From: an uncultured Candidatus Rokubacteria bacterium
GTDB lineage: Bacteria; Methylomirabilota; Methylomirabilia; Rokubacteriales; CSP1-6
Assembly (NCBI GenBank): GCA_963754315.1
Contig: CAVWFS010000005.1
Location: 190,384-254,383 of the forward strand
DNA length: 64,000 nt
Direction: 5' to 3'
Position numbers and translations under genes: made by a program. Positions 28,221 through 51,952 of this stretch are shown here, one piece after another. How positions within the stretch are numbered: position 1 is the stretch's first letter; each line of letters begins with the position of its first letter. The notes beneath the pieces were generated by a model that saw only the letters and a list, made by a program, of their open reading frames with translations, was not told the DNA's origin and did not search any database.

Positions 28221-28981
28221 CATCGGCCGCCGTCGATCCTCGAAACTTGAGCCGCCGTCTGGTGGCGGAAGGCGCGGGCACGGCGTTGCTGCTGGCCGCC
28301 GTCGTCGGATCGGGGATCATGGGTGAGCGGTTGGCCGGCGGCAACGTCGCCGTCGCCCTGCTCGCCAACACGCTCGCCACTGGCGCGGCGCTCGTCGCTC
28401 TCATCCTGACCTTCGGACCAATCTCCGGAGCCCACTTCAACCCCGCGGTGACCTTGGCCGACGCCTCCCAGGGAGGCCTGCCGTGGCGCGATGTCCCACC
28501 CTATCTCGCCGCCCAGGTGCTCGGAGCCTTCGCCGGGGTGGCCGCGGCCCACCTCATGTTCGGCGAGCCACTGTACTTCGCGTCTCGCCATGCGCGCGCG
28601 GGAGCGGCCCAGGCGTTCAGTGAGTTCGTGGCGACCTTCGGCCTGCTGGCCGTGATCTGGGGCTGCGTACGATCACGGGCTTCCGTGGTGGCATTCGCCG
28701 TCGCCGCGTACATCACCGCGGCGTACTGGTTCACGGCGTCCACCTCCTTCGCAAACCCGGCGGTCACGCTGGCCCGCTCGGCGAGCGACACCTTCGCGGG
28801 GATCCGCCCGGCAGATGCGCCGCTCTTCATCGTGGCTCAGCTCGCCGGCGCGGGGGCGGCCACCGCGCTGTTCCGCTGGCTGGTGCCGGCGCTGCCGACA
28901 GTCGCGTCAGCGGTGACCGTGCCGCCCGCTCTGGCCGACGACCGCGACGTACCCGCGGCACGGGCCAACCGTACGCGATGA
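28217..28981 (+). CDS. MIP-family aquaglyceroporin (AqpS/GlpF-like arsenite channel)
   Basis: Two NPA boxes (HFNPAVT, FANPAVT), six TM segments, located in the ars operon. Confidence 0.85.
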   Translation: MTSAAVDPRNLSRRLVAEGAGTALLLAAVVGSGIMGERLAGGNVAVALLANTLATGAALVALILTFGPISGAHFNPAVTLADASQGGLPWRDVPPYLAAQVLGAFAGVAAAHLMFGEPLYFASRHARAGAAQAFSEFVATFGLLAVIWGCVRSRASVVAFAVAAYITAAYWFTASTSFANPAVTLARSASDTFAGIRPADAPLFIVAQLAGAGAATALFRWLVPALPTVASAVTVPPALADDRDVPAARANRTR

Positions 28982-29015: not shown

Positions 29016-31319
29016 ATGGCGATGAACATTCGACGCAACACGACAGAGAACCCAGGGCTGCCCATCGCCGTCATCGGCGCGGGACCGATCGGGCTGGCCG
29101 CCGCCGCACACCTTGCGTCCCGGGGCCTGCCCTTCGTTGTCCTCGAGGCTGGTCAGTCGGTCGGCGCCCATGTGAGCGCGTGGAGCCACGTGCAGGTCTT
29201 CTCCCCCTGGCGGTACAACATCGATGCAGCGGCCGGAGCCATGCTCAAGGCAGCCGGCTGGAAGGAGCCGGATCGCGACGTGCTGCCCACTGGCGGCGAG
29301 CTAGTGGCGGAATACCTCCGCCCCCTCGGAGAGCTTCCCCAGATTGCTCCGCACGTGCGCCTGGGCACACGTGTCCTCGCCGTCGCTCGCGCCGGCTACG
29401 ACAAGATGAAGACAGCAGGGCGCGACCAGGCGCCCTTCGAGCTGCGCGTCCACTCCTTCGCCGGTGAGGAGAGGCAGCTCGCGCGGGCCGTCATCGATGC
29501 GTCGGGCACGTATGCGGTCCCCAATCCGCTGGGCGCCAACGGCCTGCCTGCGATCGGCGAGTCAGAATCCGGCTCACGCGTGTTTTACGGAATCCCCGAC
29601 GTTGGCGGGGTCCACCGTGGCCGCTATGCTCGGCGCGCTATCGTGGTCGTTGGCAGTGGGCACTCCGCGTTCAACACCTTGCTCGACCTGCACGATCTCG
29701 CCCTGGCCGAAGTGGGGACAACGATCACCTGGGCCGTGCGTCGGAGCGACATCGGTGCGATGTACGGCGGCGGCGATGCCGACACGCTCCCGGCCCGAGG
29801 CAGCCTGGGCGCCCGCCTGCGCCAGCTCGTCGAGTCGGGGCGGCTGCGCCTGGTGACCGGCTTTCTGACACGCGAGCTCCGGCGTGACGCAAAGCGGGTG
29901 AGCCTTGTCGACACGCAAGGCCGGACGCTCGGCCCATTCGACGAGATCATCGCCGTGACGGGATTTCGACCGGACCTGGCCATGCTGGGCGAGCTGCGTC
30001 TTGATCTCGATCCCGCCGTGGAGAGTCCACGGGCGCTCGCGCCGCTGATCGATCCTAACGTCCACAGCTGTGGCACCGTACCGCCGCACGGTGTCGAGGA
30101 GCTGCGCCAGCCCGAGACGAACTTCTTCGTGGTGGGGATGAAGAGCTACGGACGGGCGCCGACCTTTCTCATGCTCACCGGGTACGAGCAGGTGCGCTCG
30201 GTCGTGGCCGCCCTCGCCGGCGACTGGGAGTCGGCCCGGCGCATGGAGCTGACCTTGCCGCCCACAGGCGTGTGCTCATCGACGCCAATCGCCGGGACCC
30301 TGGCCACCGCATGCTGTGACACCACGGTGGCGGCGGAGGTCGCGACAGCCGCCGCCGCGACCGGCTGCTGTACGCCCTCTCCGGCGGACGACACGTCCGG
30401 CGCATGCTGTGCACCAGCTCCGGACGCGGCCGCAAGCGCATGCTGTGCCCCCGCACCAACACTCATCCCGAGCCTAGATCAGCCGAAAGCCAAGGAGACC
30501 ACCATGGAACGGACGGACGCGATCAAGGATGTCGTCAAGGCCAAGTACGGCGCCGCCGCCCTTCGCGTGGCAAGCGGAAGCACGTCCTGCTGCGGTGGCA
30601 CCACCTCCCGCTCAACTGCGGATCCCATCACCTCCAACCTCTATGGTGAGGAGACAGCGGAGGTTCCGCCCGAGGCGCTCGCCGCCTCGCTCGGATGCGG
30701 CAATCCAACCGCGCTCGCCGAATTGCGGGCGGGCGAAGTGGTGCTGGATCTCGGCTCGGGCGGTGGCATCGACGTCTTGCTCTCCGCCAGGCGGGTCGGG
30801 CCCGAGGGCAAGGCGTACGGGCTTGACATGACCGACGAGATGCTCGCTCTGGCGCGGGAGAACCAGCGCAAAGCGGGGGTCACCAACGTCGAGTTCCTCA
30901 AGGGGGAGATCGAGCACATGCCGCTGCCGAACGAAGCCGTGGACGTGATCATCTCCAACTGCGTGATCAACCTCTCGCCGGACAAGGACGCCGTCCTGGC
31001 CGAGGCCTTCCGGGTTCTGAAGCCCGGCGGCCGGGTGGCGGTTTCCGACGTGGTAGTCCGCGGAGAGGTGCCGGCCGCCGTGCGCAAGAGCGTCGAACTC
31101 TGGATCGGCTGTGTGGCCGGCGCCCTGGAGGAATCGGAGTACCGCGCGAAGCTGCAGAAGGCGGGCTTCGAGGCGATCGACATCGAGCCGACGCGCGTCT
31201 ACAGCGGCGAGAGCGCGCGGGAGCGCTTGTCTGCCGCGGGGCTGGATGCCGAGACGATCGCGAGCGTGGAGGGCAGGTTCATCAGCGCGTTCATCCGCGC
31301 GCGCAAGCCACAGCCATGA
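29016..31319 (+). CDS. arsM: Fusion protein: FAD/NAD(P)-binding flavoprotein (ArsO/FMO-like), Cys-pair-rich linker, then As(III) S-adenosylmethionine methyltransferase ArsM
   Basis: N-terminal part has AVIGAGPIGLAAA and VVVGSGHSAFN dinucleotide folds. The linker has four CC dyads. The C-terminal part has the four conserved ArsM cysteine contexts (SCCGG, LGCGNP, ISNCVINL, WIGCVAGA) and the SAM motif VLDLGSGGG. Confidence 0.8.
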   Translation: MAMNIRRNTTENPGLPIAVIGAGPIGLAAAAHLASRGLPFVVLEAGQSVGAHVSAWSHVQVFSPWRYNIDAAAGAMLKAAGWKEPDRDVLPTGGELVAEYLRPLGELPQIAPHVRLGTRVLAVARAGYDKMKTAGRDQAPFELRVHSFAGEERQLARAVIDASGTYAVPNPLGANGLPAIGESESGSRVFYGIPDVGGVHRGRYARRAIVVVGSGHSAFNTLLDLHDLALAEVGTTITWAVRRSDIGAMYGGGDADTLPARGSLGARLRQLVESGRLRLVTGFLTRELRRDAKRVSLVDTQGRTLGPFDEIIAVTGFRPDLAMLGELRLDLDPAVESPRALAPLIDPNVHSCGTVPPHGVEELRQPETNFFVVGMKSYGRAPTFLMLTGYEQVRSVVAALAGDWESARRMELTLPPTGVCSSTPIAGTLATACCDTTVAAEVATAAAATGCCTPSPADDTSGACCAPAPDAAASACCAPAPTLIPSLDQPKAKETTMERTDAIKDVVKAKYGAAALRVASGSTSCCGGTTSRSTADPITSNLYGEETAEVPPEALAASLGCGNPTALAELRAGEVVLDLGSGGGIDVLLSARRVGPEGKAYGLDMTDEMLALARENQRKAGVTNVEFLKGEIEHMPLPNEAVDVIISNCVINLSPDKDAVLAEAFRVLKPGGRVAVSDVVVRGEVPAAVRKSVELWIGCVAGALEESEYRAKLQKAGFEAIDIEPTRVYSGESARERLSAAGLDAETIASVEGRFISAFIRARKPQP

Positions 31320-31371: not shown

Positions 31372-31902
31372 ATGACCCGCCCCCCAATCACCACGCGGCT
31401 GGCGACGACGGCCGATGCCGCGCCCATCGCCGGGATCTACAACGAAGGCATCGCCGATCGCATCGCCACGTTCGAGACGGAGCCGCGAACGGCAGACCAG
31501 ATCGCGGCGCAGCTGGTCGACAAGGGCGATCGGTTCCCGACCGTGGTCGCGGAGCGAGAAGGCCGAATCGTGGCCTGGGCCAGCGCGGGGCCATACCGGA
31601 ATCGCCCCGCGTATGCCGGTGTGGCCGAGCACTCGGTCTACGTGGCCCGCGGCGACCGTGGCACCGGAGCTGGGCGGGCCGCCCTGGATGCACTCTGCCG
31701 CGCATACGACGAGCGCGGGTTCTGGAAGGTTGTCTCGCGCATCTTCCCCGAGAACACCGCGAGCCTCGCCCTCCATGAGCGCTGTGGGTTCCGTGTGGTT
31801 GGCGTTTATCGCCGCCACGGCCAGCTGGACGGCACGTTGCGCGACTGCGTCATCGTCGAGAAGCTCCTCGGCGACGACTCCCAGACTCAGACGTCGGCCT
31901 GA
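31372..31902 (+). CDS. arsN: GNAT acetyltransferase of the phosphinothricin/arsinothricin N-acetyltransferase type (ArsN1-like)
   Basis: PAT-family pattern IAGIYNEGI...ATFE...PYRNRPAYAGVAEHSVYV...ASLALHERCGF. Located inside the ars cluster. Confidence 0.7.
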   Translation: MTRPPITTRLATTADAAPIAGIYNEGIADRIATFETEPRTADQIAAQLVDKGDRFPTVVAEREGRIVAWASAGPYRNRPAYAGVAEHSVYVARGDRGTGAGRAALDALCRAYDERGFWKVVSRIFPENTASLALHERCGFRVVGVYRRHGQLDGTLRDCVIVEKLLGDDSQTQTSA

Positions 31903-31918
31903 TGGCAACGCCGATGCC

Positions 31919-33175
31919 ATGACGTGGAACCGCGGCGTACTGGCGATGTGCGCGGCGCAAGCCTCTGCCCAAATCGGCGCTTTCAGCGTCGCGGCGCTCC
32001 TTCCAACCCTCATTCCTGCCTGGTCACTCACCAACACGGAGGCGGGTTGGATCGGAGGCATCTACTACGCCGCCTACACGCTGGTCGTACCCGTGCTCTC
32101 CTCCCTCGCCGATCGCGTGGATCCGAAGCGCATCTATCTTGTCTCCGTGGCACTGACCGCCGTCGCGTTCGCCGGATTCGCCTGGGCCGCCACAGGATTC
32201 TGGTCAGCTTTGGCGTTTCGCGCCCTGATGGGTGCCGGCTGGGCCGGCAGCTACATGCCGGGGCTCAAGGCGCTGAGTGACTGCGCCGAAGGTCCGCAGC
32301 TGTCGCGCGCCGTCGCTGCCCACGCCGCGGCGGTCGGCGTCAGCGGCGCCCTCTCGTTCGGCGTGGCCGGGGCGGTCAACGCGTGGCTCGGCTGGCAGTG
32401 GGCCCTCGTGCCGGGCGCTCTGGGAGCTGGTCTGGCATTCGTACTCGTGCTGGTCGGCCTGCCCGCTCAGCCTCCGCGCGCCTCAGCGGGGCAGCGCGGT
32501 GCACTGCTCGACTTTCGCCCGATCTTTCGCAACCGGTCGGCACTGGCCTACTCCGTCGCGTACGCCGTGCACACGTGGGAAATGTCGGCACTCAGGGCGT
32601 GGGTGGTCACGTTTCTCACGTTTGCAGCCGCGCACAGCGCCGGCACATGGACACCCCTGGCGCCCGCAACCGTTGCCAGCATCATGGGGCTCCTCGGCGT
32701 ATGGGCCAGCATATGGGGTAACGAGCTGGCCATCCGGTTCGGACGCCGCCGGTTCATTCTCAGCACGATGCTCGCCTCGGCCGCGATGGCCGGCATGGTC
32801 GGCTTCAGCGCAGCGCTCCCGTATGCCGTTGCGGCGGCGCTGGTGCTCGTCTACGCCATGCTGATCTGGTCGGATTCCTCTTCACTGACGGCGGGGAGTG
32901 CCGGCAGCGCCGAGCCTGGCCGCCGCGGCGCGACGCTGGCCGTCCATTCAACGCTTGGCTACGCGGGTGGCTTTCTGGGGCCGCTGGCGCTGGGCGCGAC
33001 GCTCGACCTCGTCGGTGGCACAAGCGTAATCGGTTGGGGCATCGCGTTCGCCCATGTCACCGTCGCGGTGCTCGCCGGGTGGATCGCGTTCGTGTGGTTG
33101 CGGCCGGCCGACCTCGCCGGCGATCGCCCGGCGATCGTGCCGCCCTATGCGGCTGGCAACGCGCCACCGGCGTGA
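31919..33175 (+). CDS. MFS transporter (possible organoarsenical/metalloid efflux)
   Basis: About 12 TM segments and the MFS loop motif SLADRVDPKRIY. Last gene of the ars cluster. Substrate is inferred only from context. Confidence 0.75.
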   Translation: MTWNRGVLAMCAAQASAQIGAFSVAALLPTLIPAWSLTNTEAGWIGGIYYAAYTLVVPVLSSLADRVDPKRIYLVSVALTAVAFAGFAWAATGFWSALAFRALMGAGWAGSYMPGLKALSDCAEGPQLSRAVAAHAAAVGVSGALSFGVAGAVNAWLGWQWALVPGALGAGLAFVLVLVGLPAQPPRASAGQRGALLDFRPIFRNRSALAYSVAYAVHTWEMSALRAWVVTFLTFAAAHSAGTWTPLAPATVASIMGLLGVWASIWGNELAIRFGRRRFILSTMLASAAMAGMVGFSAALPYAVAAALVLVYAMLIWSDSSSLTAGSAGSAEPGRRGATLAVHSTLGYAGGFLGPLALGATLDLVGGTSVIGWGIAFAHVTVAVLAGWIAFVWLRPADLAGDRPAIVPPYAAGNAPPA

Positions 33176-33630: not shown

Positions 33631-34392
33631 ATGCCTCGCAGCGCGACCGGACGACGGTTCTCACCTACGCTGCGCTCCTCGTCATCGCCGCCGCGGCCTG
33701 GGGCCAGGTTCTCTGGTCAGCCTCGGCCCACGATGACATGAGCGGCATGGACATGCCGCCGACCGTTGCTGACGGTCTCCTCTACGTGGCGAACTGGACG
33801 GTCATGATGACGGCCATGATGCTGCCGAGCGCGATGCCCATGATCGCGCTCTACGCCGCCACGCAGCGGGCTGAGCCAAGTGCGGTGGCGAGGGCAGCGG
33901 CGGTGGCGCGGTTCACGCTCGTGTATCTCGGGCTCTGGGCCCTGACGGGCATACCGATCTACATCGGCAGCGTGACCCTCGGGCGCTTCTCCAGGGCGCT
34001 TCCCTATGGAGTCGCGCTCGCGCTCGTCGCCGCCGGCGTCTTTCAGCTCACACCGCTCAAGCAGATCTGTCTGCGCAACTGCCGCAGCTCCGCTCGGATT
34101 CCTCCTCGGCCACTGGCGGCCGGGCCTACGGGGTAGCCTCGCGATGGGTTGGGCGCACGCGGTATACTGCTTGGGCTGCTGCTGGGCGTTGATGGTCGTC
34201 CTGGTCGCCGCCGGAGCCATGGGTCTTCCCTGGGTCCTGCTCATTGCAGCGGTGGTCGCGGCGGAGAAGCTGGCGCCGCGCGGAGAGTGGGTTGCGCGAG
34301 CTACCGGGCTCGCGCTGATACTCCTGGGCGTGGCCGTCGCCCTGCGGCCAGACCTGGCGATGGTCCTGCGGGCGAGCGGCCATTCCATGTAA
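33631..34392 (+). pseudogene. DUF2182 family metal-binding membrane protein, two apparent frameshifts (~33645 and ~34089)
   Basis: Family-typical segments lie in three frames: MPRSATGRR; then VLTYAALLVIAAAAW...MDMPP...LTPLKQICLRNCRS; then PLGFLLGHWRPG...YCLGCCWALM. Confidence 0.7.
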
Positions 34393-34417
34393 CAGAGTGA
34401 GGCAACGGAGAGACGTC

Positions 34418-35071
34418 ATGGCGAATGTTCAGTGGCGGATCAACGGGGACTACTTTGAGGCGTGCAGTTGTGACTTCGTGTGTCCCTGCCCGACCTCGGG
34501 GCTGGCCGCATCGCCGACCAAGGGGGCCTGCGACGCGGGCCTCGTGTTCCAGGTGAGCCGGGGCCAGTACGGTAGCACCACGCTCGACGGCCTGAGCTTT
34601 GCCGTCCTGCTGCACACGCCCGGCCCGATGATCGCGGGCAACTGGACCGTTGGTCTCGTCTTGGACGAGCGCGGCTCACACGAGCAGCGCGAGGCGCTCA
34701 CTGCGATCGCCAGCGGTCAGGCGGGCGGGCCCATGGCCGCCCTCGCTCCGTTGATCGGCCGTTTCGGCGGCGCCGAGCCAAAGCCGATAACCATCACCAA
34801 GGACGGCATGCGCCGATCGGTCTCGATCCCGGGCATGCTCGATATCGCCATCGAGGGCGTCGCCGGCGCCAACCCGGGCGAGCCGGTCTACTTCGACAAT
34901 GTCGGCCACCCGGCCGCCTCCCGACTGGCGCTGGCCAAGGCATCCCGCGGCGACATGCACGGCTTCGGGATCGCGTGGGACGAAATGTCGGGCCGCAACG
35001 CGGTTACTCGAGCCGCGTCAAGGTCACGTCGAGGACACGCACGTCGCCGTCGGCCCGTCGCCACTGAATGA
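34418..35071 (+). CDS. DUF1326 domain protein
   Basis: WRINGDYFEACSCDFVCPCPTSG and SGQAGGPMAALAPLIG match the DUF1326 pattern. This is the usual partner of DUF2182. The C-terminal tail overlaps the convergent gene and may be extended artificially. Confidence 0.75.
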   Translation: MANVQWRINGDYFEACSCDFVCPCPTSGLAASPTKGACDAGLVFQVSRGQYGSTTLDGLSFAVLLHTPGPMIAGNWTVGLVLDERGSHEQREALTAIASGQAGGPMAALAPLIGRFGGAEPKPITITKDGMRRSVSIPGMLDIAIEGVAGANPGEPVYFDNVGHPAASRLALAKASRGDMHGFGIAWDEMSGRNAVTRAASRSRRGHARRRRPVATE

Positions 35072-36066
35072 GGATGGGACTCTGGTACGTGCCTTCCACG
35101 GGCCTGGCCGGGGCGTCCCCGCGCTCGGCCACGAGAACGCTGATGGCCCGCCGGATCCGAAGCATGTGGGCGACCGGCACGGCCACCGTGCGTGCGAGAA
35201 GCCGCTCCACGAGTGAATCCTGAAGGCCGAGCGTATCCAGGCCCGAGTTCAGCATCCGCACGAGGTCGTAGCGGGCGTAGCCGAGCGCCTTGGCCGGGAC
35301 GGCGCGGGGATTGGCGAGGAGGTGGCGGTACTCCTCGGCCATGAACCGCAGTGGGTCGCGCAGCACGGCGGCGAGATCGTACTTCATGAGGAGAGTCTCG
35401 AATTCGTTGATGGTCAGCGCCGCATCACGCTCCCCTCCCTCGAGGGCAATGCGGAGGCGGCCCCTCTCGATGCCCGCCTGGGCCACGAAGTCGGTGAGCT
35501 GGTCGTACAGTCCGAGCTTGGTGTCTTTGAGATTGACGGAATCGATGGGATGTCCCGACATGGGCACCCGCAGTCGCGTTCGCGCCACCGTCATTTCGCG
35601 ATGGAATCCGATCAGGCGCGTCAGCCGCTGACGCGGCCGCCCACGGGTGATCCCGTCCAGATCGACGAAGCAGACGACCTCGCCGGTCCGATTCGGATGC
35701 GTCACGCAGGGCCGGAGCCCGCCCGCGATGAAGGCCAGATGAGAATCCCCGTTGCGGGGCTCCACCGCCCGCTGAGCCGCGTCGAGATCCTGCCGGAATT
35801 CCAGCCAGTCGTGCGCATAGCCGGCGTCTTCGGGGAAGATCCGGCGCAAGGCCTCGACGTAGGCTGAGACCTGCCCCGGCCCGAGACGCGTCAGCAAGCC
35901 GACGGTCGAGGAAGCCGGCCGTCGTGTGCGGCGACCAGTAGAGGCAGCGCGGATACTCGGCCAGGGCCTCACGCTGGTCCGCTCCCAGCCGCGATCTCAA
36001 CTCGACCACGTCGAAACGGGCGCGGGCAGAGACGGCGAGGGTCAGGTCGAGGAGATCGGAAGCCAC
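35004..36066 (-). CDS. Hypothetical protein with YjbQ/UPF0047-like segments, apparent frameshift near 35902
   Basis: The N-terminus of ORF 35425..36066 (..LYWSPHTTAGFLDR) continues in ORF 35004..35972 (LLTRLGPGQVSAYVEAL...). GTG 36066 is preceded by GGGGAGGG. Confidence 0.5.
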
Positions 36067-36109: not shown

Positions 36110-36850
36110 CTACGGCGTCGGACGCTGGCCGAGCGGCGTTCCCACGACCACCACCAGGCGCAGAAACGCCAACACCTTGATGGCGAGCCACGACGGATCC
36201 AGCTCCGATCGGCGCAGACTGAACTTGGGGGAACGCGGAAAGGCGTGGTGGTTATTGTGCAGGCTCTCGCCCCCCGTCAGCCAGGCCAGGACGCGGGAAT
36301 TGTACGCGGTGTTGCCGAAATTCTGGGCGCCACGCCAATGACCCAGCCCGTTAATCAATGGCGCCAGCACAAACATGTAGAGGATTCCGTGCCCGATCAT
36401 GGCCACCGGGCCCTGCCACCAGCCGATGGCCAGGCTCACGAGCGCAGTGCCGAGGAAGAGTCCCGTCCACCCCCAGGAAAAGATGCGCCGCTCCCACCAG
36501 TCAGCTCCGATATCCGGGGCGAACTTTCCAACGGTCTCGCCGTTGCGTGCCTCTCGAACGTAGTAGTACACGTTCCAGAGTTGCACCTTCCAGAAGCCCA
36601 GCAGGAGCGGGCTGTGAGGATCACCCTCGCGATCGGTAAAGGTGTGATGCTTGCGATGCACGGCCACCCACTGTTGCCGGGTCTGGCCGGTGAGGAGCCA
36701 CAGGACCACGCGGAAAAAGGCAGCGGCCGCCGGGCGCAGGATGAGGGAGCGGTGGGCCAGCGCACGGTGCAGGTAGATCGACGTGGCCACCGTGGCCAGC
36801 TGGGCGAGGATGAAGGCAGCAATAGCGATGATCAAGATCTGGAGACTCAA
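36110..36850 (-). CDS. Membrane acyl-CoA/acyl-lipid desaturase
   Basis: Three histidine boxes (HRALAH, HRKHH, HNNHH) and an N-terminal TM segment. Confidence 0.85.
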   Translation of the reverse strand: MSLQILIIAIAAFILAQLATVATSIYLHRALAHRSLILRPAAAAFFRVVLWLLTGQTRQQWVAVHRKHHTFTDREGDPHSPLLLGFWKVQLWNVYYYVREARNGETVGKFAPDIGADWWERRIFSWGWTGLFLGTALVSLAIGWWQGPVAMIGHGILYMFVLAPLINGLGHWRGAQNFGNTAYNSRVLAWLTGGESLHNNHHAFPRSPKFSLRRSELDPSWLAIKVLAFLRLVVVVGTPLGQRPTP

Positions 36851-36877: not shown

Positions 36878-37780
36878 TCAGCGGGGCTCTCGCTGGTACA
36901 CGTGTTCCCGGGTACGCGGCGCATAGCCACCGTGCCCGTCACCGTGCTTGCGATTCAACACCTGGTAGAGCCCGATGGATCCCGCCTCGAAGGCGACCGC
37001 CGAGCACGTTAGGTAGAGAAGCCAGGTCCGGTATGTGCGTTCCCCGGCCACGGCCCGGGCTTCGGCGGCCCGCGCCCGCAGTCGCTCCACCCACTGCCGG
37101 CACGTGCGGGCGTAGTGCAGGCGCAGTCCCTCGACGTCGAGGATCTCCAGGCCCGCCCGCTCGATCTCGGTCAGCGTCTCGGTCAGGCCCGCCAGGTCGC
37201 CGTTTGGGAACACGTGCCGGTACAGGAACTCGGTCTGGCTGGAGGGCTTCCAGTGGTGCTCGTGGACGATCCCGTGGTTGAGATAGAGACCGCCGTCATT
37301 CAGCCGGGCCCGCACTCCCTTGAAGAAGGCCGGATAGTTTGGGATCCCGACGTGCTCGATCATGCCAACGGCGGCGATCTTGTCGTAGGTGATGTGGGCA
37401 GGCAGATCACGGTAGTCCAGAAACTCCACCCGGCAGCGACCAGCCAGGCCCTCGCGGAGAATTCGCGAGGCGGCATAGTCAGCCTGCGCCTTGGACAGGG
37501 TCACCCCGTGGGCTCTCACCTGGTAGTGCTGGGCTGCCCAGATGGCCAGGCTGCCCCAGCCACAGCCGATGTCGAGCAGGGTCTCGTCCGGCTTGAGCTC
37601 GAGCTTGCGGCAGACGAGATCGAGCTTGTCCTGCTGCGCTTGCTCGAGCTTGCCGTCGGGCTCGCGATAGTACGCGCAGGTGTAGACCATCAGCGGATCC
37701 AGGAAGAGTTCGTAGAACTCGGTGGACACGTCGTAGTGGTGAGCAATCGCGGTGGCGTCCGCGTCCCGACTTGCGTATCC
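36878..37780 (-). CDS. Cyclopropane-fatty-acyl-phospholipid synthase family SAM methyltransferase, catalytic domain only
   Basis: IAHHYDVSTEFYELFLDPLMVYTCAYY and LLDIGCGWGSLA are CMAS hallmarks. The frame is open from the upstream TGA (37781..37783). The first canonical start (GTG 37729) lies after the conserved HHYD. Confidence 0.75.
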   Translation of the reverse strand, partial: GYASRDADATAIAHHYDVSTEFYELFLDPLMVYTCAYYREPDGKLEQAQQDKLDLVCRKLELKPDETLLDIGCGWGSLAIWAAQHYQVRAHGVTLSKAQADYAASRILREGLAGRCRVEFLDYRDLPAHITYDKIAAVGMIEHVGIPNYPAFFKGVRARLNDGGLYLNHGIVHEHHWKPSSQTEFLYRHVFPNGDLAGLTETLTEIERAGLEILDVEGLRLHYARTCRQWVERLRARAAEARAVAGERTYRTWLLYLTCSAVAFEAGSIGLYQVLNRKHGDGHGGYAPRTREHVYQREPR

Positions 37781-38908
37781 TCACGACGTCGCCGCCCGCA
37801 TGCCGAAGACGTGGCCGAGCACCAGGTGCCGACGGGCGGCAGGAGTTCTCAACACGGTATGAACCAGGGCCCGCGCCATGGCGTCAGGCGTCCGGGAGAG
37901 CTGGCGGCCCAGCCAGCCGACCTCGCCCGATCCATATCGCCGAACGATCTCGCGCCCGTACCCTTCGAGCGCGGTGCCGTGCCGGAGGTGCGCTTCGACC
38001 GCCTCGGCCGCCAGCCGTCCGCTTCGAATGGCCGGCCCGATGCCCTCACCGCTCAGATCCCGCGCCAGGCCAGCGGCATCGCCGACCAGGCAGAAGCGGT
38101 CGCCGACGAGGCGCCGCGGGGCTCGGCGTCGCACGACGTAGGCGTGACCGCGAAACGGCTCGAGGCGAAGATCGTCGGGCAGGCGACCGGAGGCGCGGAG
38201 GCTTTCGACGAGGACCTGGCGCCGCCGCCGCAGATCCACCCCCGGGCCGACGACGCATCCGACTCCGACGTTCAGCACGTCGCCCTTCGGGAAGTACCAG
38301 CCGTAGCCTCTCAGGTCTCGCTCGACATAGAGCTCAGGAGCGTGCCAGGTAGCCCCGAGAGCCGCGATGCGATGCGCGCAGAGGCGCGTCTCGCTCTCTT
38401 GCGCGACGATCACCTCTTCCTCGGAGGAGACGCTGCCCAGGGCCAGGGCGACCGGACAACGGTGGCCGCCAGCCCCGATGACGATGGGAGCGGTGAAGAG
38501 ACCGGCCTCGCTCAGAATCTGGACCTCCGTCTTCGTGGCCGTCACGGAGGTCACGCGGGCGCCTTCACGCACGTCGACCCCAGCCCCCCGGGCGCGCTCG
38601 AGCAAGTGGTGGTCGAACTCGCGCCGGAGGATTCCATAGCTGGCCGGTCCTCCCCAGCGGGTCTCGTGTCGCGCTCCGTCGAACTCGAACCGACAGGCCG
38701 CGAAGGCCTGGATGGTGGCCGGATATGTCGCCGGGTTGACCTCGGCATCCGCGAGCGCCTCGAGCGTGACCCAACCCGCACAGACCTTGGGGCGCGGAAA
38801 ATGGGCGGCGTCGAGGAGGAGTAGCCGCAGTCCCGCCCCGGCAAGCGTCCAGGCGGCCGTGCTCCCGCCCGGTCCGCCGCCGACGATGATGACGTCGTAG
38901 CGCGTCAC
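37781..38908 (-). CDS. Geranylgeranyl-reductase family FAD-dependent oxidoreductase
   Basis: YDVIIVGGGPGGSTAA, KVCAGWV and LVGDAAGL motifs. GTG start lies 1 nt after the upstream stop. Confidence 0.8.
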   Translation of the reverse strand: MTRYDVIIVGGGPGGSTAAWTLAGAGLRLLLLDAAHFPRPKVCAGWVTLEALADAEVNPATYPATIQAFAACRFEFDGARHETRWGGPASYGILRREFDHHLLERARGAGVDVREGARVTSVTATKTEVQILSEAGLFTAPIVIGAGGHRCPVALALGSVSSEEEVIVAQESETRLCAHRIAALGATWHAPELYVERDLRGYGWYFPKGDVLNVGVGCVVGPGVDLRRRRQVLVESLRASGRLPDDLRLEPFRGHAYVVRRRAPRRLVGDRFCLVGDAAGLARDLSGEGIGPAIRSGRLAAEAVEAHLRHGTALEGYGREIVRRYGSGEVGWLGRQLSRTPDAMARALVHTVLRTPAARRHLVLGHVFGMRAATS

Positions 38909-38909
38909 C

Positions 38910-39311
38910 TCAGCCTCGCCAAAGGGTCAGGAGGATTCGCAGGCGGTCGCCGACGGACAGGCGAATCTCTTCCATCGCGTCGGCAATGTTCATGACGTGA
39001 AACAAGTCCCCTTCGAGGTCGATCGCGCCCTCGACGTAGGCCTCGGCGAAGTTGAGCGGCGTGGGGTCGCGAATGAGACGTATGAATGCTTCCGAGCTAT
39101 GGACGACAGCCGTGCACACGGGATCGCCATGGCCCAGCACGACGCACGTGCCGTCCCACAGACGGAACGCGCAGCCTGTCGTCACGCGACCGAAGATGTG
39201 GCGCAGGACCTCGGCGGCTCGTCGCGAGGTGGTGCGCCGTGGTAGAGGCATCATCGCGGCGCACCCGGGGCCCAATCGGACAGCCAATGAGCCGAACAGG
39301 GGCGAGCGCAT
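38910..39311 (-). CDS. N-terminal domain of a cyclopropane-fatty-acid-synthase-like protein, encoded as a separate ORF
   Basis: FRLWDGTCVVLG...AFIRLIRDPTPLNFAEAYVEGAIDLEGDLFHVM parallels the non-catalytic N-terminal region of Cfa (..GESYMDGWWECDRLDMFF..). Confidence 0.6.
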   Translation of the reverse strand: MRSPLFGSLAVRLGPGCAAMMPLPRRTTSRRAAEVLRHIFGRVTTGCAFRLWDGTCVVLGHGDPVCTAVVHSSEAFIRLIRDPTPLNFAEAYVEGAIDLEGDLFHVMNIADAMEEIRLSVGDRLRILLTLWRG

Positions 39312-39330: not shown

Positions 39331-39396
39331 CTACCGGGTGAACGACAGCGGATCGAAAACGGCGTAGACGAACCTGGCGAACGGACGAGCCGTCAT
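39331..39396 (-). CDS. Possible 21-aa leader ORF downstream of the riboswitch
   Basis: ATG 39396 follows a G-rich SD-like tract (GAGGGGGGACCAGGG). Encodes MTARPFARFVYAVFDPLSFTR. No homology evidence. Confidence 0.2.
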   Translation of the reverse strand: MTARPFARFVYAVFDPLSFTR

Positions 39397-39430
39397 CCCT
39401 GGTCCCCCCTCGAAGACCGGTTCAGCTGAT

Positions 39431-39587
39431 GCGCTCGGGTCGGTCTCCTGGCTTCCGGATCGTCCTACTCCCCGTGCCTTCCCAGCCCAACGCCAGTGGC
39501 ACTCTCGGGTTTCGTGCCCGGTTACAGTGACGGGGTCGCGGCGGATTCGCACCGCCTTCCCTGGGCCCTCATGGGCACCTCGAGCGC
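39431..39587 (-). promoter_or_regulatory. Cobalamin (B12) riboswitch
   Basis: The minus strand reads GCGCTCGAGGTGCCC..CAGGGAAGGCGGTGCGAATCCGCCGCGACCCCGTCACTGTAACCGGG..GCCACTGGCG..GGGAAGGC..GGAAGCCAGGAGACCGACCCGAGCGC. It has the conserved core, a B12 box (AAGCCAGGAGACCGACC) and closing P1 pairing GCGCTCG/CGAGCGC. Confidence 0.8.
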
Positions 39588-39672
39588 GACAACGCGATGA
39601 CACTAGCAGAGCCCTCGGGGTCCTCGCAACATGAATGCGTCACTCCGGTCTCGCGGTGGTGTCGGGAGAAGT

Positions 39673-42411: not shown

Positions 42412-42422
42412 TCACAATGTGA
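42412..42422. promoter_or_regulatory. Possible antitoxin operator
   Basis: Palindrome TCACA-A-TGTGA immediately upstream of the Phd-like gene start. Confidence 0.25.
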
Positions 42423-42424
42423 CC

Positions 42425-42715
42425 ATGAAGGCCATCAACGTCACCGAGCTCAAGGCTCACCTGAGCAAGTACCTCCGGATGGCATCGCGTGGGGCCCGGA
42501 TACTCGTGAAGGACCGGGACGAGCCGATCGCCCAGCTCGGCCCACCCCAAGCGGCGGCGCGGTCATGGTCCGACCGCCTGGCCCAAGCCGGTCGGCTGCG
42601 GCTGGGCACGCAAGACTGGCGCAGGTTCGAGATCTCCAGGCTCGATCGGCACGTCGACATCCAGGCGTCGCTTCGTGCGGTGCGTGAGGATCCGAGTGAA
42701 GTACGTCGACGCTAG
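42425..42715 (+). CDS. Type II antitoxin, Phd/YefM family
   Basis: MKAINVTELKAHLSKYL... is the typical Phd/YefM N-terminus. The gene overlaps the downstream PIN toxin gene. Confidence 0.75.
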   Translation: MKAINVTELKAHLSKYLRMASRGARILVKDRDEPIAQLGPPQAAARSWSDRLAQAGRLRLGTQDWRRFEISRLDRHVDIQASLRAVREDPSEVRRR

Positions 42716-43112
42716 CGCCGTGCTCCGGGTCCTGTTCGCCGAGCCGGGACCCGAGGTACCGCTCGCCGCCGGCGACCGCGTTGTGTCGTCGCAACTCGTC
42801 GAGGTCGAGACGTTCCGGGCCGTCGATCGCGAGCGGCTACTCGGCAACCTCGACGATAAGCAGACAGCGACCAAACGCAAGGAGCTGGTCGACTTTCTCG
42901 CCAGGCTCGATCTGGCTCCGATCGATGGCGCGGTGATCGATCGCGCCAAGAGCTCCTTCGCCGTGAACCTCCGCGCGCTCGACGCGATTCACGTGGCAAC
43001 GGCCGAGATCCTGGCCGCCGAAGCCGAGGGCGAGCCGCTGGAATTCTGGACGCACGACGATCGTCAGGCCATCGCCGCGCTCTCGCGCGGGCTCACCGTG
43101 CGCGGAACGTGA
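42696..43112 (+). CDS. vapC: PIN-domain toxin (VapC family)
   Basis: VKYVDASAVLRVL start (GTG 42696), later LRALDAIHVATA and FWTHDDRQ. Confidence 0.8.
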   Translation: MKYVDASAVLRVLFAEPGPEVPLAAGDRVVSSQLVEVETFRAVDRERLLGNLDDKQTATKRKELVDFLARLDLAPIDGAVIDRAKSSFAVNLRALDAIHVATAEILAAEAEGEPLEFWTHDDRQAIAALSRGLTVRGT

Positions 43113-48499: not shown

Positions 48500-49549
48500 C
48501 TAGGGGTCGAACGCGAAGATGCGCTTCCAGTCGTTCTTCATGCTGATGACGTTCCAGCCGCGCTTCTTGGCTTCGTCGTAAAGGGCCTGCGTAAAGGCGC
48601 CGACCCTGGTGGCCGGCAGCCCTTGGGCGGGCCCGTACGCATACTCACGCTGCGCATCGTCGTGAAGCACCAGCATCATCAGCCGCGCGCCGTCGCCCGC
48701 CTGCGTGTACTCCAGCATCTGGCGATCGCCGGGGGAGTTGCCGAAGGCGGCGTAGGGCCGCCGTCCGATCATCAGGTGAATGCCTTCAGGCTTGCCGGCA
48801 TTGTTGTCGTTCAGCAGCAGCTTCGGCTCCTTGGTGAGGAACGGTCGTCCGTCCTTGGCATAGCCGTACTTCGTGCCCCCCGCGGTGCCCACCACCTGCT
48901 CGGGCGGGATGCCATAGACCTGCTCGGAGTACACGCGCACGAAATCCTGGCCGCCCCCGGTCACGATGTAGGTCTTGTAGCCGTTGTCGCGGAAGTAGCG
49001 CAGCACCTCCTGCATGGGCTGATACGTGAGCTCGGTGTAGGGCCGCTTCCAGCGCGGATGCGTGGCGGCGCCCAGCCACTTCTTCACTTCGGCGTTGAAC
49101 TCGTCCACGGTCATCCCGGTGAGGGTGGCGGCGAGAATCACCTCGAGGTCCTTCATCGAGAGCTTCGCCATCGCCTCCCGGTTGCCGGACAGTACGGTCT
49201 TGAAAGGCTCCACGTTCTTCAGCTCCGGCTTTTTCGCCACCACCGCTGGCACCCGCTCCAGGCAGTAGACCACCTGCGTGTACATGGGATGCGAGACCCA
49301 CAAGGTCCCGTCCTGGTCGAAGGTGGCGATACGCGCTTCGGGCGGGACGAACTTTGGACTCGCCTTGTCGGTGGTGGCCTGCACGAACTCGACGATCGCC
49401 TTCTTGGCCGGCCCTTCGTTCCATGACGGCAGCGGGTCAGTCTGGCCGAACGCCGGCGGGCTCGAGCCGAGCCAGATGGCAAGCACGAGCAGCAGGAGGC
49501 ATCGATGCACCGCGGCGATGGCCCTCATGACGAATGCTCCCCCTTTCAT
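48500..49549 (-). CDS. Secreted HAD-superfamily hydrolase
   Basis: Signal peptide, FDQDGTLW (DxDxT) motif, and later VTGGGQDF and GNSPGDRQML. Confidence 0.8.
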   Translation of the reverse strand: MKGGAFVMRAIAAVHRCLLLLVLAIWLGSSPPAFGQTDPLPSWNEGPAKKAIVEFVQATTDKASPKFVPPEARIATFDQDGTLWVSHPMYTQVVYCLERVPAVVAKKPELKNVEPFKTVLSGNREAMAKLSMKDLEVILAATLTGMTVDEFNAEVKKWLGAATHPRWKRPYTELTYQPMQEVLRYFRDNGYKTYIVTGGGQDFVRVYSEQVYGIPPEQVVGTAGGTKYGYAKDGRPFLTKEPKLLLNDNNAGKPEGIHLMIGRRPYAAFGNSPGDRQMLEYTQAGDGARLMMLVLHDDAQREYAYGPAQGLPATRVGAFTQALYDEAKKRGWNVISMKNDWKRIFAFDP

Positions 49550-49564
49550 GTCTGTCTCCGGTGT

Positions 49565-51161: not shown

Positions 51162-51190
51162 ATGGCCTCCACGGCTGAGGGGATTTCGCC

Positions 51191-51673: not shown

Positions 51674-51783
51674 TCGGCGACCCCCCCGTGCCCAGCATGG
51701 GCTTGCGTTGTCATTCCTCTCCAGCGACGCATGCTCTGAGACGCTCGCTTGAGCAGCACTATCCTGCCAGTTGCAATGCGCAC

Positions 51784-51952
51784 TCAGTAGTCCCTCACGA
51801 ACTTGCCGGTGGTAGACATCGGCTGCATCCAGCCGATGTCCTCACCCATGATGAAGAGGATGTTGGGCTTCGGCTGCGCCGAGGGCCGGCATTGACGCCA
51901 GCCCCACGGCCGTGAACAGCGCGAGCAGCATAGGCCAGATCTTCCGAGTCAT
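51784..51952 (-). pseudogene. Arylsulfatase N-terminal remnant
   Basis: Signal peptide MTRKIWPMLLALFTAVGLA.., then in a shifted frame KPNILFIMGEDIGWMQP.., then termination. No catalytic core follows. Confidence 0.55.

What the first reader, a model, noticed from the sequence alone, without database searches (positions are those of the whole stretch)
39331..39587. Cobalamin riboswitch placed in front of a lipid-modification operon
A well-formed B12 riboswitch (conserved core, B12 box, closing P1) lies on the minus strand. The next downstream minus-strand features are a 21-codon ORF and then the Cfa-N/GGR/Cfa-MT/desaturase genes, with no transporter, cob/cbi, metE or nrd gene nearby. Known B12 riboswitches mostly control B12 uptake or synthesis, or B12-independent isozymes. 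By analogy, this operon could be a B12-independent route that is repressed when a B12-dependent (for example radical-SAM) lipid methylase can operate. That idea is pure inference.
Basis: partly seen in the sequence, partly recalled or inferred. Interest (0 to 1): 0.75.

Follow-up and report, generated by a model that had tools for sequence, protein, structure and literature searches.

The report
B12 riboswitch controlling lipid-modification operon
A genuine vitamin-B12-sensing RNA switch, copied from this soil bacterium lineage's own B12-salvage operon, sits in front of genes that desaturate and probably methyl-branch membrane fatty acids, so B12 most likely shuts off a lipid-remodelling pathway for a reason nobody has yet explained.

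Summary
Rfam RF00174 matches window 39421..39598 (-) full-length at 101 bits. Its own conserved promoter lies upstream. A conserved SD-sequestering hairpin, an ATG and a 21-codon uORF lie downstream.

The operon has five genes, not four: Cfa N-domain, TmpA-like GGR flavoprotein, CMAS methyltransferase, a three-His-box desaturase, and a 353-aa UPF0047-like gene. The last is frameshifted in the window.

The same promoter-aptamer-platform cassette controls cobU-cobT (B12 salvage) in about 70-87 of 120 metagenome hits. By homology it is therefore an OFF switch.

The riboswitch is not a fixed feature of the methylation genes. About 50 triad-only loci lack it. It occurs intact before the five-gene operon (7 species), before the desaturase/353-aa pair alone (L153, L201-L205, next to a riboswitch-controlled nrdAB), and once before the triad alone (L023). 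At least four different deletions have destroyed it elsewhere. Where it is kept, it is under purifying selection.

A 2007 paper reported one soil fragment with a B12 riboswitch before a desaturase. That is the only precedent I found. No B12-dependent counterpart is known.

The parts
39624..39629 (-). -35 promoter element TTGCGA
   Evidence: Conserved TTGCG/TTGAC block upstream of an extended -10 (18-nt spacer in the window) in the full-length riboswitch copies aligned (108). Sequence upstream of it is unrelated between loci. The simple sigma-70 scan did not call it because the -10 matches only 3 of 6.
39600..39608 (-). Extended -10 element TGcTAGTGT. The predicted transcription start lies a few nt downstream, at the 5' edge of P1.
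   Evidence: TGnTAnnnT is conserved in the lipid-type, cobU-type and TonB-type copies. The function as a promoter is inferred.
39421..39598 (-). Cobalamin riboswitch aptamer (RF00174), with the P6 extension and the B12 box AGCCAGGAGACC
   Evidence: 101.4 bits, E 3.4e-24, model 1-189/189; 83-90% identical to seven orthologous copies (68% to L050), against 50-58% at third codon positions of the adjacent gene and 44-51% upstream of the promoter.
39398..39420 (-). Expression platform: P13-like hairpin CCGGUC/GACC(A)GG. Its G-rich loop and 3' arm contain the SD-like GAGGGGGG (39411..39404).
   Evidence: Part of the conserved block ACCGGTCTTCGAGGG(A/G)GGACC (L001 has ACCTG; L050 varies in the 3' arm). 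Hairpin MFE is -12.3 kcal/mol. The G-run is complementary to the L5 CCCC and to the anti-SD. The 5' arm can instead pair with the B12-box strand GGAGACCG (-15.0 kcal/mol; 0.5% of shuffles do as well). Essentially the same platform precedes cobU in 69-87 loci.
39331..39396 (-). 21-codon leader uORF (MTARPFARFVYAVFDPLSFTR, then TAG) starting at the riboswitch-controlled ATG
   Evidence: the same ATG position opens uORFs of 6-22 codons with unrelated sequences in the lipid-type copies (none in L008). Their stops overlap the first gene's start (ATGA/TTGA) in L003, L006, L023 and L201. In cobU-type copies this start codon is cobU's own.
38910..39311 (-). Stand-alone Cfa N-terminal (lipid-binding) domain protein, DUF7884. 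The conserved start is probably ATG 39254/39251 (MMPLPRR); ATG 39311 is an in-frame extension.
   Evidence: PF25371, 34 bits (cutoff 27). Matches CfaB positions 15-82. Relatives align only from residue ~20.
37781..38908 (-). GGR-family FAD flavoprotein, TmpA-like putative methylene reductase
   Evidence: TIGR02032, 184.5 bits (cutoff 158.8). 33% identity, 112 bits, E 7e-33 to D. curvatus TmpA, with the shared FPRPKVCAGWVT motif, against 59.8 bits to archaeal GGR 3oz2.
36878..37729 (-). CMAS-family SAM methyltransferase, catalytic domain only
   Evidence: PF02353, 275 bits. Matches CfaB positions 113-393. 33% identity to TmpB. 190 bits to CFA synthase 5z9o.
36110..36850 (-). Membrane di-iron fatty-acid desaturase (COG1398/DesA-like), 246 aa, with three His boxes: HRALAH, HRKHH, HNNHH
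   Evidence: PF00487, 64.9 bits. NF049918 DesA family, 195.8 bits (below the 400 cutoff; covers 5-239 of 385). His boxes read from the translation.
35004..36066 (-). UPF0047/YjbQ-like protein of ~353 aa with HTTAG and TINE motifs. Split in the window by a 1-nt insertion near 35902.
   Evidence: tblastn with the intact L153 protein gives two HSPs in frames -2 and -3 in the window, but one intact ORF in ~22 relatives. The extra base is visible in the DNA alignment. JGI name and weak Pfam hit.

Best explanation
This is a functional class-I (AdoCbl-type) cobalamin riboswitch that represses translation of a five-gene lipid-modification operon when B12 is available.

How the switch works. Transcription starts from a promoter that belongs to the same conserved cassette (-35 TTGCGA, extended -10 TGcTAGTGT). 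Without B12, the B12-box strand (GGAGACCG) can pair with the 5' arm of the platform (CGGUCUUC), which leaves the SD-like GAGGGGGG free. With B12 bound, the aptamer closes and the P13 hairpin forms. Its G-run is then held in the stem or docked onto the C-rich L5 loop, so the SD and the ATG at 39396 are hidden.

How repression reaches the genes. That ATG opens a 21-codon uORF with no conserved sequence. It is a leftover of, or relay from, the transplanted cassette. Its translation passes ribosomes on to the Cfa-N gene and the tightly packed genes behind it. Lack of translation would also expose the mRNA to polarity.

Where the cassette came from. It is a paralogue of the one that feedback-controls the lineage's cobU-cobT B12-salvage operon.

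What the operon does. It most likely makes a double bond in membrane acyl chains (desaturase), adds a methylene to it (split Cfa-N plus CMAS methyltransferase) and reduces it to a mid-chain methyl branch (TmpA-like flavoprotein), as in 10-methyl-palmitate synthesis. The 353-aa UPF0047-like protein is an obligate companion of the desaturase with unknown role.

What is shown and what is inferred. Shown: the RNA, its conservation, its paralogy and the gene content. Inferred: the OFF logic, the kissing-loop/SD mechanism, the uORF coupling and the lipid product. Unknown: why B12 should repress this operon. The most likely logic is a 'B12-independent, O2-dependent back-up set', as for nrdAB.
For: Aptamer and selection:
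- Aptamer at 101 bits, full length.
- Aptamer identity to 7 of 8 orthologous copies is 83-90% (68% in L050). That equals codon positions 1-2 of the neighbouring gene (80-88%) and far exceeds third positions (50-58%) and the sequence upstream of the promoter (44-51%).

Cassette and platform:
- Promoter motifs are conserved in 108 copies, with unrelated DNA upstream.
- Platform conserved.
- A pattern scan for the platform gave 120 metagenome loci, 118 of them with the aptamer adjacent.
- The first gene is CobU in 87 and reads in frame from the platform's start codon in 69. CobT follows, and a TonB receptor follows in others.

Leader:
- uORFs of 6-22 unrelated codons; their stops overlap the first gene's start in L003, L006, L023 and L201.
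- No intrinsic terminator or second sigma-70 promoter is predicted in the leader.

Recurrence in different architectures:
- Sister riboswitch copies sit before the five-gene operon (7 genome loci plus metagenome contigs), before the desaturase/353-aa pair alone (L153, L201-L205) and before the triad alone (L023).
- In L201 a second cobalamin riboswitch precedes nrdAB.

Operon function:
- Pfam/NCBIfam assignments.
- GGR is 33% identical to TmpA and the MT 33% identical to TmpB.
- TmpB makes 10-methylene-16:0 in E. coli, and TmpA is the proposed GGR-like reductase (PMC7791843).
Against: - No experiment: ligand binding, the OFF direction and uORF coupling are all inferred.
- In the window the uORF stop is 19 nt before ATG 39311 and 77 nt before the conserved ATG 39254, so coupling is less obvious here than in relatives with overlapping stop and start.
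- P13 is almost invariant, so there is no covariation support for it. RNAfold prefers a longer stem with a GAGG tetraloop, which would not leave the G-run free for a kissing loop.
- The riboswitch is absent or destroyed in most relatives of the operon (13 five-gene loci have none, and there are at least 4 kinds of deletion remnant). Its benefit must therefore be conditional.
- The MT is no closer to TmpB than to true cyclopropane synthases, and TmpA activity has never been demonstrated, so the methyl-branch product is a guess.
- The fifth gene is frameshifted in this window.
- No B12-dependent counterpart was found.
Confidence: 0.7

Rival explanations
1. The operon is a B12-independent way to methylate lipids. 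It is switched off when a B12-dependent radical-SAM lipid methylase can do the job (for example HpnP, or an unknown acyl-chain C-methylase).
For: - The OFF logic is shared with cobU copies.
- L023 keeps the riboswitch on the methylation triad alone.
- Rokubacteria are one of three phyla in which the B12-dependent hopanoid C-2 methylase HpnP is concentrated (PMC10697835).
- B12-dependent radical-SAM enzymes are known lipid methylators (PMC13459092).
Against: - About 50 triad-only loci have no riboswitch.
- Sister copies control the desaturase/353-aa pair with no methyltransferase at all.
- 2-methylhopanoids and mid-chain methyl or unsaturated acyl chains are not functionally equivalent (my own knowledge).
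- No B12-dependent fatty-acid methylase is known as of a 2026 review.
- No such gene lies in the window.
Confidence: 0.2
2. The real B12-controlled target is the O2-dependent di-iron desaturase with its UPF0047-like partner (the 2007 'desaturase isozyme' idea). The methylation genes are passengers that joined the unit in one subclade because they use its product.
For: - The riboswitch, intact or as a remnant, occurs in 11 of 24 genome loci that carry the desaturase/353-aa genes, against 1 of ~50 that lack them.
- Stand-alone riboswitch-uORF-desaturase-353-aa units occur in L153 and L201-L205, with sister riboswitch sequences.
- They lie next to a riboswitch-controlled nrdAB, another O2-dependent di-iron enzyme.
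- An independent precedent exists in a soil metagenome (PMC2211319).
Against: - The counts are confounded by phylogeny.
- L023 keeps the switch with the triad only.
- No B12-dependent desaturation or equivalent is known.
- The direction of the rearrangement (triad inserted or triad deleted) is not resolved.
Confidence: 0.35
3. The operon serves B12 acquisition rather than substitution. When B12 is scarce, the cell remodels membrane fluidity or permeability to help uptake, in the same regulon as the TonB receptor and the salvage genes.
For: - The same cassette controls TonB-dependent receptors and cobU-cobT.
- B12 uptake depends on envelope permeability in mycobacteria, judged only from the title and abstract of PMC11237697 as listed (paper not read).
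Against: There is no direct evidence. Unsaturated and methyl-branched lipids have no known role in cobalamin transport. The analogy comes from a very different envelope.
Confidence: 0.08
4. The regulation is real but nearly neutral. A mobile promoter-riboswitch cassette landed in front of the lipid genes, persists in some lineages and is decaying in others, with no specific B12-lipid logic.
For: - The cassette has clearly been copied between loci.
- At least four different destructive deletions are seen (L009, L011, L020/L021, L116, L206/L207).
- 13 five-gene loci have no trace of it.
Against: - Where it is retained, the aptamer is as conserved as codon positions 1-2 across species whose third positions are saturated.
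- It is retained in three different gene architectures.
- uORF stops have been tuned to overlap the downstream start in several lineages.
Confidence: 0.12
5. The operon product is not a 10-methyl (mid-chain methyl) fatty acid. It could be a cyclopropane acid, a furan or other oxidised acid, or a modified isoprenoid or quinone, with the GGR-like enzyme doing something else.
For: - The MT scores higher against true CFA synthases (190 bits) than against TmpB (132 bits).
- TmpA was inactive when tested.
- JGI pipelines name relatives 'menaquinone reductase'.
- The role of the 353-aa protein is unknown.
Against: - The invariant Cfa-N/GGR/MT adjacency in 80 loci mirrors the methyltransferase-plus-reductase pairs of tmpBA and bfaAB.
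- The GGR is closest to TmpA among characterised or named proteins tested.
- A DesA-like acyl desaturase in the same operon supplies the olefin substrate.
Confidence: 0.25

Closest known systems
Cobalamin riboswitch RF00174, class I, translational OFF switches of the btuB/env8 type (L5-L13 kissing loop hiding the RBS)
   Same: Full-length match to the family model with B12 box and P6 extension. A hairpin right after the aptamer carries the SD in a G-rich loop complementary to the C-rich L5. The same platform feedback-controls B12 salvage and uptake genes in the same lineage.
   Different: The regulated genes are lipid-modifying enzymes. The controlled start codon opens a vestigial uORF rather than the gene itself. 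Ligand binding and the kissing loop are not demonstrated here.
B12 riboswitch upstream of fatty-acid desaturase ole1/COG1398 (Kazanov, Vitreschak & Gelfand 2007, PMC2211319)
   Same: A cobalamin riboswitch in front of a Delta9-type membrane desaturase in a soil metagenome. The same 'B12-independent isozyme' hypothesis was proposed, and it is unresolved.
   Different: That was one short fragment, assigned to gamma-Proteobacteria, with no operon context. Here the link is seen in many Rokubacteria/Methylomirabilota contigs, always with a 353-aa UPF0047-like partner. In one subclade it is fused behind Cfa-N/GGR/MT genes, and the riboswitch's origin and decay can be traced.
tmpBA 'ten-methyl-palmitate' operon of Desulfobacteraceae, Marinobacter and Thiohalospira (Blitzblau et al. 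2021, PMC7791843)
   Same: A Cfa-like SAM methyltransferase sits beside a geranylgeranyl-reductase-like flavoprotein. The window's GGR is 33% identical to TmpA and shares the FPRPKVCAGWVT motif; the MT is 33% identical to TmpB.
   Different: The gene order is reversed and the Cfa N-domain is split off as a separate first gene (Cfa-N, GGR, MT). A desaturase and a UPF0047-like gene are appended. The reference I read reports no riboswitch. The product is untested.
bfaAB (tmsAB) 10-methylstearate / tuberculostearic acid pathway of actinomycetes (Machida 2017, PMC5660069; Blitzblau 2021)
   Same: The same two-step logic: methylenation of a Delta9 olefin by a Cfa-like enzyme, then flavoprotein reduction.
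   Different: BfaA is an unrelated FAD oxidase family. There is no split N-domain, no desaturase in the operon and no B12 control.
B12-riboswitch-controlled B12-independent isozymes (metE, nrdAB)
   Same: Repression by B12 of an enzyme set that does not need B12. A riboswitch-controlled nrdAB lies next to the riboswitch-controlled desaturase pair in L201-L204. Both NrdB and the desaturase are O2-dependent di-iron enzymes (established knowledge).
   Different: For metE and nrdAB the B12-dependent partner (MetH, NrdJ) is known. For the desaturase and methylation genes none is known.

Membership tests
Cobalamin riboswitch (Rfam RF00174) | Covariance-model score at or above the curated gathering score, over the whole model | tested here: met
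   101.4 bits against 31.5, model 1-189/189, E 3.4e-24. Orthologous and paralogous copies score 87-90 bits.
Cobalamin riboswitch (Rfam RF00174) | Conserved B12 box and core junction sequences | tested here: met
   GCCACUG and AGCCAGGAGACC are aligned to the consensus and invariant across nine orthologues.
Cobalamin riboswitch (Rfam RF00174) | Binds a cobalamin, and which form (AdoCbl or MeCbl/AqCbl) | not testable with these tools
   The presence of the P6 extension suggests class I/AdoCbl. This is an inference only.
Translational OFF platform (RBS sequestration with L5-L13 kissing loop) | A hairpin directly after the aptamer that contains the SD, with its loop complementary to L5 | tested here: inconclusive
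   The hairpin and complementarity are present. The stem is invariant, so there is no covariation, and the MFE prefers a longer stem that buries the G-run instead of presenting it.
Translational OFF platform (RBS sequestration with L5-L13 kissing loop) | Repression of downstream genes by B12 | not testable with these tools
   Indirect only: an essentially identical platform controls cobU-cobT and TonB receptor genes, which B12 riboswitches typically repress (established knowledge).
tmpBA ten-methyl-palmitate operon | Cfa-like SAM methyltransferase adjacent to a GGR-like flavoprotein homologous to TmpA | tested here: met
   Adjacency in all 80 loci. 33% identity, E 7e-33 to TmpA. 33% identity, E 1e-40 to TmpB.
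tmpBA ten-methyl-palmitate operon | Two-gene tmpB-tmpA order with a full-length (N-domain plus catalytic) TmpB | tested here: not met
   The order here is Cfa-N, GGR, MT, with the N-domain as a separate 114-133-aa protein. There is no pairwise similarity between Cfa-N and the TmpB N-terminus by BLASTP.
tmpBA ten-methyl-palmitate operon | Makes 10-methylene/10-methyl C16 acids | not testable with these tools
   Needs expression and GC-MS. Rokubacteria are uncultured.
Delta9-type membrane fatty-acid desaturase (COG1398 / DesA family) | Three histidine boxes HX4H, HX2HH, HX2HH with Delta9-like spacing, and a Pfam FA_desaturase match | tested here: met
   HRALAH, HRKHH and HNNHH in the translation. 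PF00487, 64.9 bits, above the 29.7 cutoff.
Delta9-type membrane fatty-acid desaturase (COG1398 / DesA family) | NCBIfam DesA-family equivalog score above cutoff | tested here: not met
   NF049918 scores 195.8 bits against a cutoff of 400. The 246-aa protein covers only positions 5-239 of the 385-position model, and relatives have the same short length.
B12-independent isozyme under a B12 riboswitch (metE/nrdAB logic) | A B12-dependent enzyme with the same function encoded in the same genome | not tested
   Only 64 kb of this genome and ~13-kb loci of relatives were available. None was found in the window. HpnP is common in the phylum according to PMC10697835, but it is not isofunctional.

The most novel reading that the evidence does not exclude
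Rokubacteria possess an unrecognised B12-dependent way of tuning membrane acyl chains. Candidates are O2-independent desaturation or direct C-H methylation by a B12-radical-SAM enzyme. This would make the O2-dependent desaturase / SAM-methylase / reductase route redundant when B12 is present. The riboswitch would then mark one half of a new B12-dependent / B12-independent enzyme pair in lipid metabolism, comparable to NrdJ/NrdAB and MetH/MetE.
Probability: 0.2. Interest if true: 0.85.

Novelty: new variant of a known kind. Interest (0 to 1): 0.6.

Why it matters
Cobalamin riboswitches are reliable pointers to B12-related biology. Almost every gene they control either makes or imports B12, or replaces a B12-dependent enzyme.

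A selectively maintained copy in front of fatty-acid desaturation and methyl-branching genes therefore predicts a link between B12 and membrane lipids that is currently unknown. It revives a hypothesis from 2007 that was never followed up.

The analysis also gives concrete material for testing that hypothesis:
- a compact, self-contained B12-repressible cassette (promoter, aptamer, platform);
- natural 'knock-out' alleles (deletion remnants);
- three gene architectures to compare.

Separately, the conserved split Cfa-N / TmpA-like / methyltransferase triad in Rokubacteria, Binatia and Thermodesulfobacteriota is a candidate source of mid-chain methyl-branched fatty-acid biomarkers in soils and sediments. 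The always-paired 353-aa UPF0047-like protein is a candidate new desaturase partner.

Tried and rejected
- Exact-sequence lookup of the window's GGR protein: not on record.
- Literature search for 'cobalamin riboswitch' plus 'cyclopropane fatty acid': no papers.
- Whole-leader MFE folding: uninformative, z = +1.6. Replaced by targeted folding.
- Simple promoter/terminator scan: no promoter and no leader terminator. The conserved promoter emerged only from comparing copies.
- Single-sequence nhmmer: under-detected copies. Replaced by a profile and by Rfam scans of 24 riboswitch-negative loci.
- AlphaFold2 of the 353-aa protein from a 26-sequence, >=71%-identity alignment: pLDDT 47.6, so not used for fold search. 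A profile search of the PDB found nothing at E <= 1.
- Strict motif search for the frameshift failed in relatives. Replaced by tblastn.
- The uORF as a conserved leader peptide: rejected, because the sequences are unrelated and lengths range from 0 to 22 codons.
- The riboswitch serving a divergent or upstream gene: rejected, because the promoter, orientation and platform all face the lipid operon.
- Cfa-N pairwise similarity to the TmpB N-terminus: none by BLASTP, although the Pfam and NCBIfam profiles do detect the domain.
Full report
**1. Observation.** An Rfam scan of the whole window gives exactly one hit: RF00174 (Cobalamin) at 39421..39598 on the minus strand. It scores 101.4 bits against a gathering score of 31.5 (E 3.4e-24), covers all 189 model positions and is not truncated. 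The B12 box and core junctions align to the consensus. That ORF exists (39396..39331). The downstream minus-strand genes are as described:
- a stand-alone Cfa N-domain (DUF7884, 38910..39311);
- a GGR-family flavoprotein (37781..38908; TIGR02032, 184 bits, above cutoff);
- a CMAS methyltransferase lacking its N-domain (36878..37729; 275 bits);
- a membrane desaturase (36110..36850) with three His boxes.

Pfam scans of about 50 ORFs across the window found no cob/cbi, btu, metE/H, nrd, mutase or B12-radical-SAM gene.

**2. A fifth gene.** The ORF I first called '322 aa' is the 3' part of a ~353-aa gene that starts at GTG 36066. Its N-terminal ~55 residues lie in another frame. tblastn with an intact orthologue gives two HSPs in frames -2 and -3 in the window, but a single ORF in ~22 relatives. 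A DNA alignment shows one extra base near 35902. JGI names the family 'YjbQ (UPF0047)'. Pfam gives only a weak UPF0047 match, although HTTAG and TINE-like motifs are visible. AlphaFold2 from a shallow alignment failed (pLDDT 47.6), and a profile search of the PDB found nothing.

**3. Lineage and conservation of the operon.** The closest GGR homologues (71-94% identity) come from Candidatus Rokuibacteriota / Methylomirabilota MAGs and soil metagenomes. In 80 species-representative loci the order Cfa-N, GGR, MT is invariant, including in Binatia and Thermodesulfobacteriota at ~52% identity. The desaturase and 353-aa genes follow in only 24 loci, the closest subgroup.

**4. Distribution of the riboswitch.** Profile nhmmer and Rfam find an intact riboswitch upstream of the operon in only 8 of 80 loci: L001, L003, L005, L006, L007, L008, L023 and L050. 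Twenty-four negative loci were re-checked with Rfam, and only a marginal 32-bit remnant turned up. Remnants show different destructive deletions:
- L116 lost 72 nt, including the B12 box, but kept the platform;
- L009 lost the 3' half and the platform;
- L020/L021 lost them at another breakpoint;
- L011 keeps ~60 nt;
- L206/L207 keep model positions 2-120.

Thirteen five-gene loci have no trace of a riboswitch. About 50 triad-only loci have none, with one exception: L023, where the riboswitch precedes the triad and a convergent ABC-F gene follows.

**5. The riboswitch seen from the RNA side.** The block ACCGGTCTTCGAGGG(A/G)GGACCAGGGATG just after the aptamer is conserved in all orthologues. 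The first downstream gene is:
- CobU (PF02283) in 87, followed by CobT (PF02277);
- a TonB-dependent receptor in 4;
- the Cfa-N operon in 6;
- in L153, the desaturase directly, followed by the 353-aa gene.

In 69 loci the start codon after the platform is cobU's own and reads into its P-loop. All copies share a sigma-70-like promoter (-35 TTGCG/TTGAC, 17-18 nt, extended -10 TGnTAnnnT), and the DNA upstream of it is unrelated between loci. The mobile unit is therefore a complete B12-responsive expression cassette. Because B12 riboswitches on cobU/cobT and btuB-type genes are typically feedback-repressing (established knowledge), the lipid-operon copy is inferred to be an OFF switch.

**6. Independent replication at the desaturase.** Context look-ups of 353-aa homologues gave stand-alone desaturase/351-aa pairs (L201-L205), convergent with nrdB-nrdA. 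Rfam finds a cobalamin riboswitch directly upstream of the desaturase (about 87 bits) and another upstream of nrdA (about 90 bits). L201 has the same platform. Its 10-codon uORF has a stop that overlaps the desaturase's TTG start. In a neighbour-joining ordering, the Cfa-N-type and desaturase-type riboswitches lie together (84-88% identical to the window's copy). They are flanked by cobU-type copies (~79%) and are far from the nrdA riboswitch (55%). I did not compute tree support, so 'sister' is provisional.

**7. Mechanism.** These energetics come:
- The platform folds as a hairpin (-12.3 kcal/mol) containing GAGGGGGG.
- That G-run is complementary to the anti-SD (-11.3) and to the CCCC of L5 (-11.5).
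- Alternatively, the 5' arm pairs with the B12-box strand GGAGACCG (8 bp, -15.0 kcal/mol; 0.5% of shuffles are as good). This would free the SD when the aptamer is empty.

This is the canonical btuB/env8-type arrangement, but P13 never varies, so covariation cannot support it. No intrinsic terminator is predicted in the leader, so control is most likely translational. It would be relayed by the uORF and by the tight gene spacing (1-51 nt between the first four genes, 43 nt to the fifth).

The uORF is 0-22 codons long and its sequence is not conserved. Its stop overlaps the next start in L003, L006, L023 and L201. I read it as a vestige of the transplanted start codon that now works as a relay. 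In the window the stop lies 19 nt before ATG 39311. The conserved start of the Cfa-N protein is more likely 39254.

**8. Selection.** Aptamer identity between the window and seven of the eight orthologous copies is 83-90% (68% for L050). That equals codon positions 1-2 of the adjacent GGR gene (80-88%). It is far above third positions (50-58%) and above the 99 nt upstream of the promoter (44-51%). So where the switch is kept, it is maintained by selection.

**9. What the operon makes.** Blitzblau et al. 2021 (PMC7791843) describe tmpBA. TmpB is a Cfa-like enzyme that makes 10-methylene-palmitate in E. coli. TmpA is a GGR-like putative methylene reductase that was inactive in their assay. Comparisons with the window's proteins:
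- The GGR is 33% identical to D. curvatus TmpA (112 bits, shared FPRPKVCAGWVT motif), against ~60 bits to an archaeal GGR structure.
- The MT is 33% identical to TmpB, but it scores at least as well against true cyclopropane synthases.

With a DesA-like desaturase in the same operon, the simplest reading is desaturation, then methylenation, then reduction to a mid-chain methyl branch. This is an inference. The architecture differs from tmpBA (reversed order, split N-domain), so I do not file it as a tmpBA member.

**10. Why B12?** This is unresolved. Kazanov et al. 2007 (PMC2211319) saw one soil fragment with a B12 riboswitch before a COG1398 desaturase and proposed a B12-independent/-dependent isozyme pair. 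I found no follow-up. A 2026 review of radical-SAM lipid enzymes lists B12-dependent GDGT enzymes, HpnP/HpnR and a ladderane candidate, but no acyl desaturase or mid-chain methylase. Rokubacteria are rich in HpnP (PMC10697835), which shows that B12 already affects lipids in this phylum, but HpnP is not isofunctional. The neighbouring riboswitch-controlled nrdAB suggests a common theme: O2-dependent di-iron enzymes used when B12 is lacking. Rival readings are listed with their tests: acquisition-related membrane remodelling, B12 as an environmental proxy, and near-neutral cassette capture.

**11. Verdict.**
- The riboswitch is ordinary in kind (RF00174, canonical platform, paralogue of the cobU switch) but unusual in target.
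The data shift the emphasis from methylation to the desaturase module and show that the link is evolutionarily labile.
- Novelty: a new variant of a known kind.
- Interest: 0.6.

Noticed in passing
window 35893..35915 (about 35902), minus strand: A single extra base relative to six orthologues splits the 353-aa UPF0047-like gene into two frames. It is either a real inactivating mutation or an assembly error. L001, from the MFD-series MAG MFD00962.bin.2.94, shows several such shifts.
   Followed up: yes
L009 5487..5612; L011 2105..2162; L020 and L021 ~5493..5604; L116 5829..5701 (-); L206 1670..1791: Truncated cobalamin riboswitch remnants sit in front of otherwise intact five-gene operons, produced by at least four different deletions. 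L116 is a clean 72-nt internal deletion that removes the B12 box and keeps the platform, which makes it a natural constitutive allele.
   Followed up: yes
L201 10719..10926 (-); L204 9112..9319 (-): A second, distantly related cobalamin riboswitch (about 90 bits) lies upstream of class-I ribonucleotide reductase nrdA-nrdB. These genes are convergent with the riboswitch-controlled desaturase pair.
   Followed up: partly
L083, L094, L142, L187 (just after the platform): Unlike the lipid-type uORFs, a 13-codon uORF with a conserved peptide (MG(T/S)STS(T/M)(S/P)(R/Q)V(E/D)V(A/S)) follows the same riboswitch platform in four loci. In L094 a periplasmic-binding-protein-like ORF lies further downstream. 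This may be a genuine leader peptide of another regulon member.
   Followed up: no
L118 (ORF 76..745 after the platform) and one similar locus: A 222-aa multi-pass membrane protein with no Pfam match is the first gene after the same riboswitch cassette. It is an uncharacterised member of the B12 regulon, possibly a transporter.
   Followed up: no
L206 3325..4230 compared with window 36878..37729: In some relatives the methyltransferase gene is called as 301 aa and overlaps the GGR stop by 4 nt. In the window, an in-frame stop limits it to 283 aa with a 51-nt gap. So the degree of translational coupling within the operon differs between lineages.
   Followed up: no
window 29016..31319 (+): A 767-aa fusion of an N-terminal flavin/pyridine-nucleotide oxidoreductase domain with a C-terminal class-I SAM methyltransferase, flanked by an aquaporin (28175..28981) and an MFS transporter (31415..33175).
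   Followed up: no
window 42419..43112 (+): A Phd/YefM-type antitoxin (98 aa) overlapping a PIN-domain protein (145 aa): a likely type II toxin-antitoxin pair.
   Followed up: no
window 49437..57622 and 58000..63300: Two sulfatases and an FGE-type sulfatase-modifying enzyme form a cluster. Total GC dips to 0.60-0.61 at 54-58 kb. Genes beyond 58 kb have third-position GC of 0.94-0.97, against about 0.82 elsewhere. This may be a compositional boundary.
   Followed up: partly
window 17631..19735 (-): A chromate transporter ChrA (tandem domains) with the ChrB regulator. An ArsR-family regulator lies at 27370..27711, and a DUF1326 / PpoB2 copper-chaperone pair at 33738..35071. Together they form a metal-stress neighbourhood around the lipid operon.
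   Followed up: no
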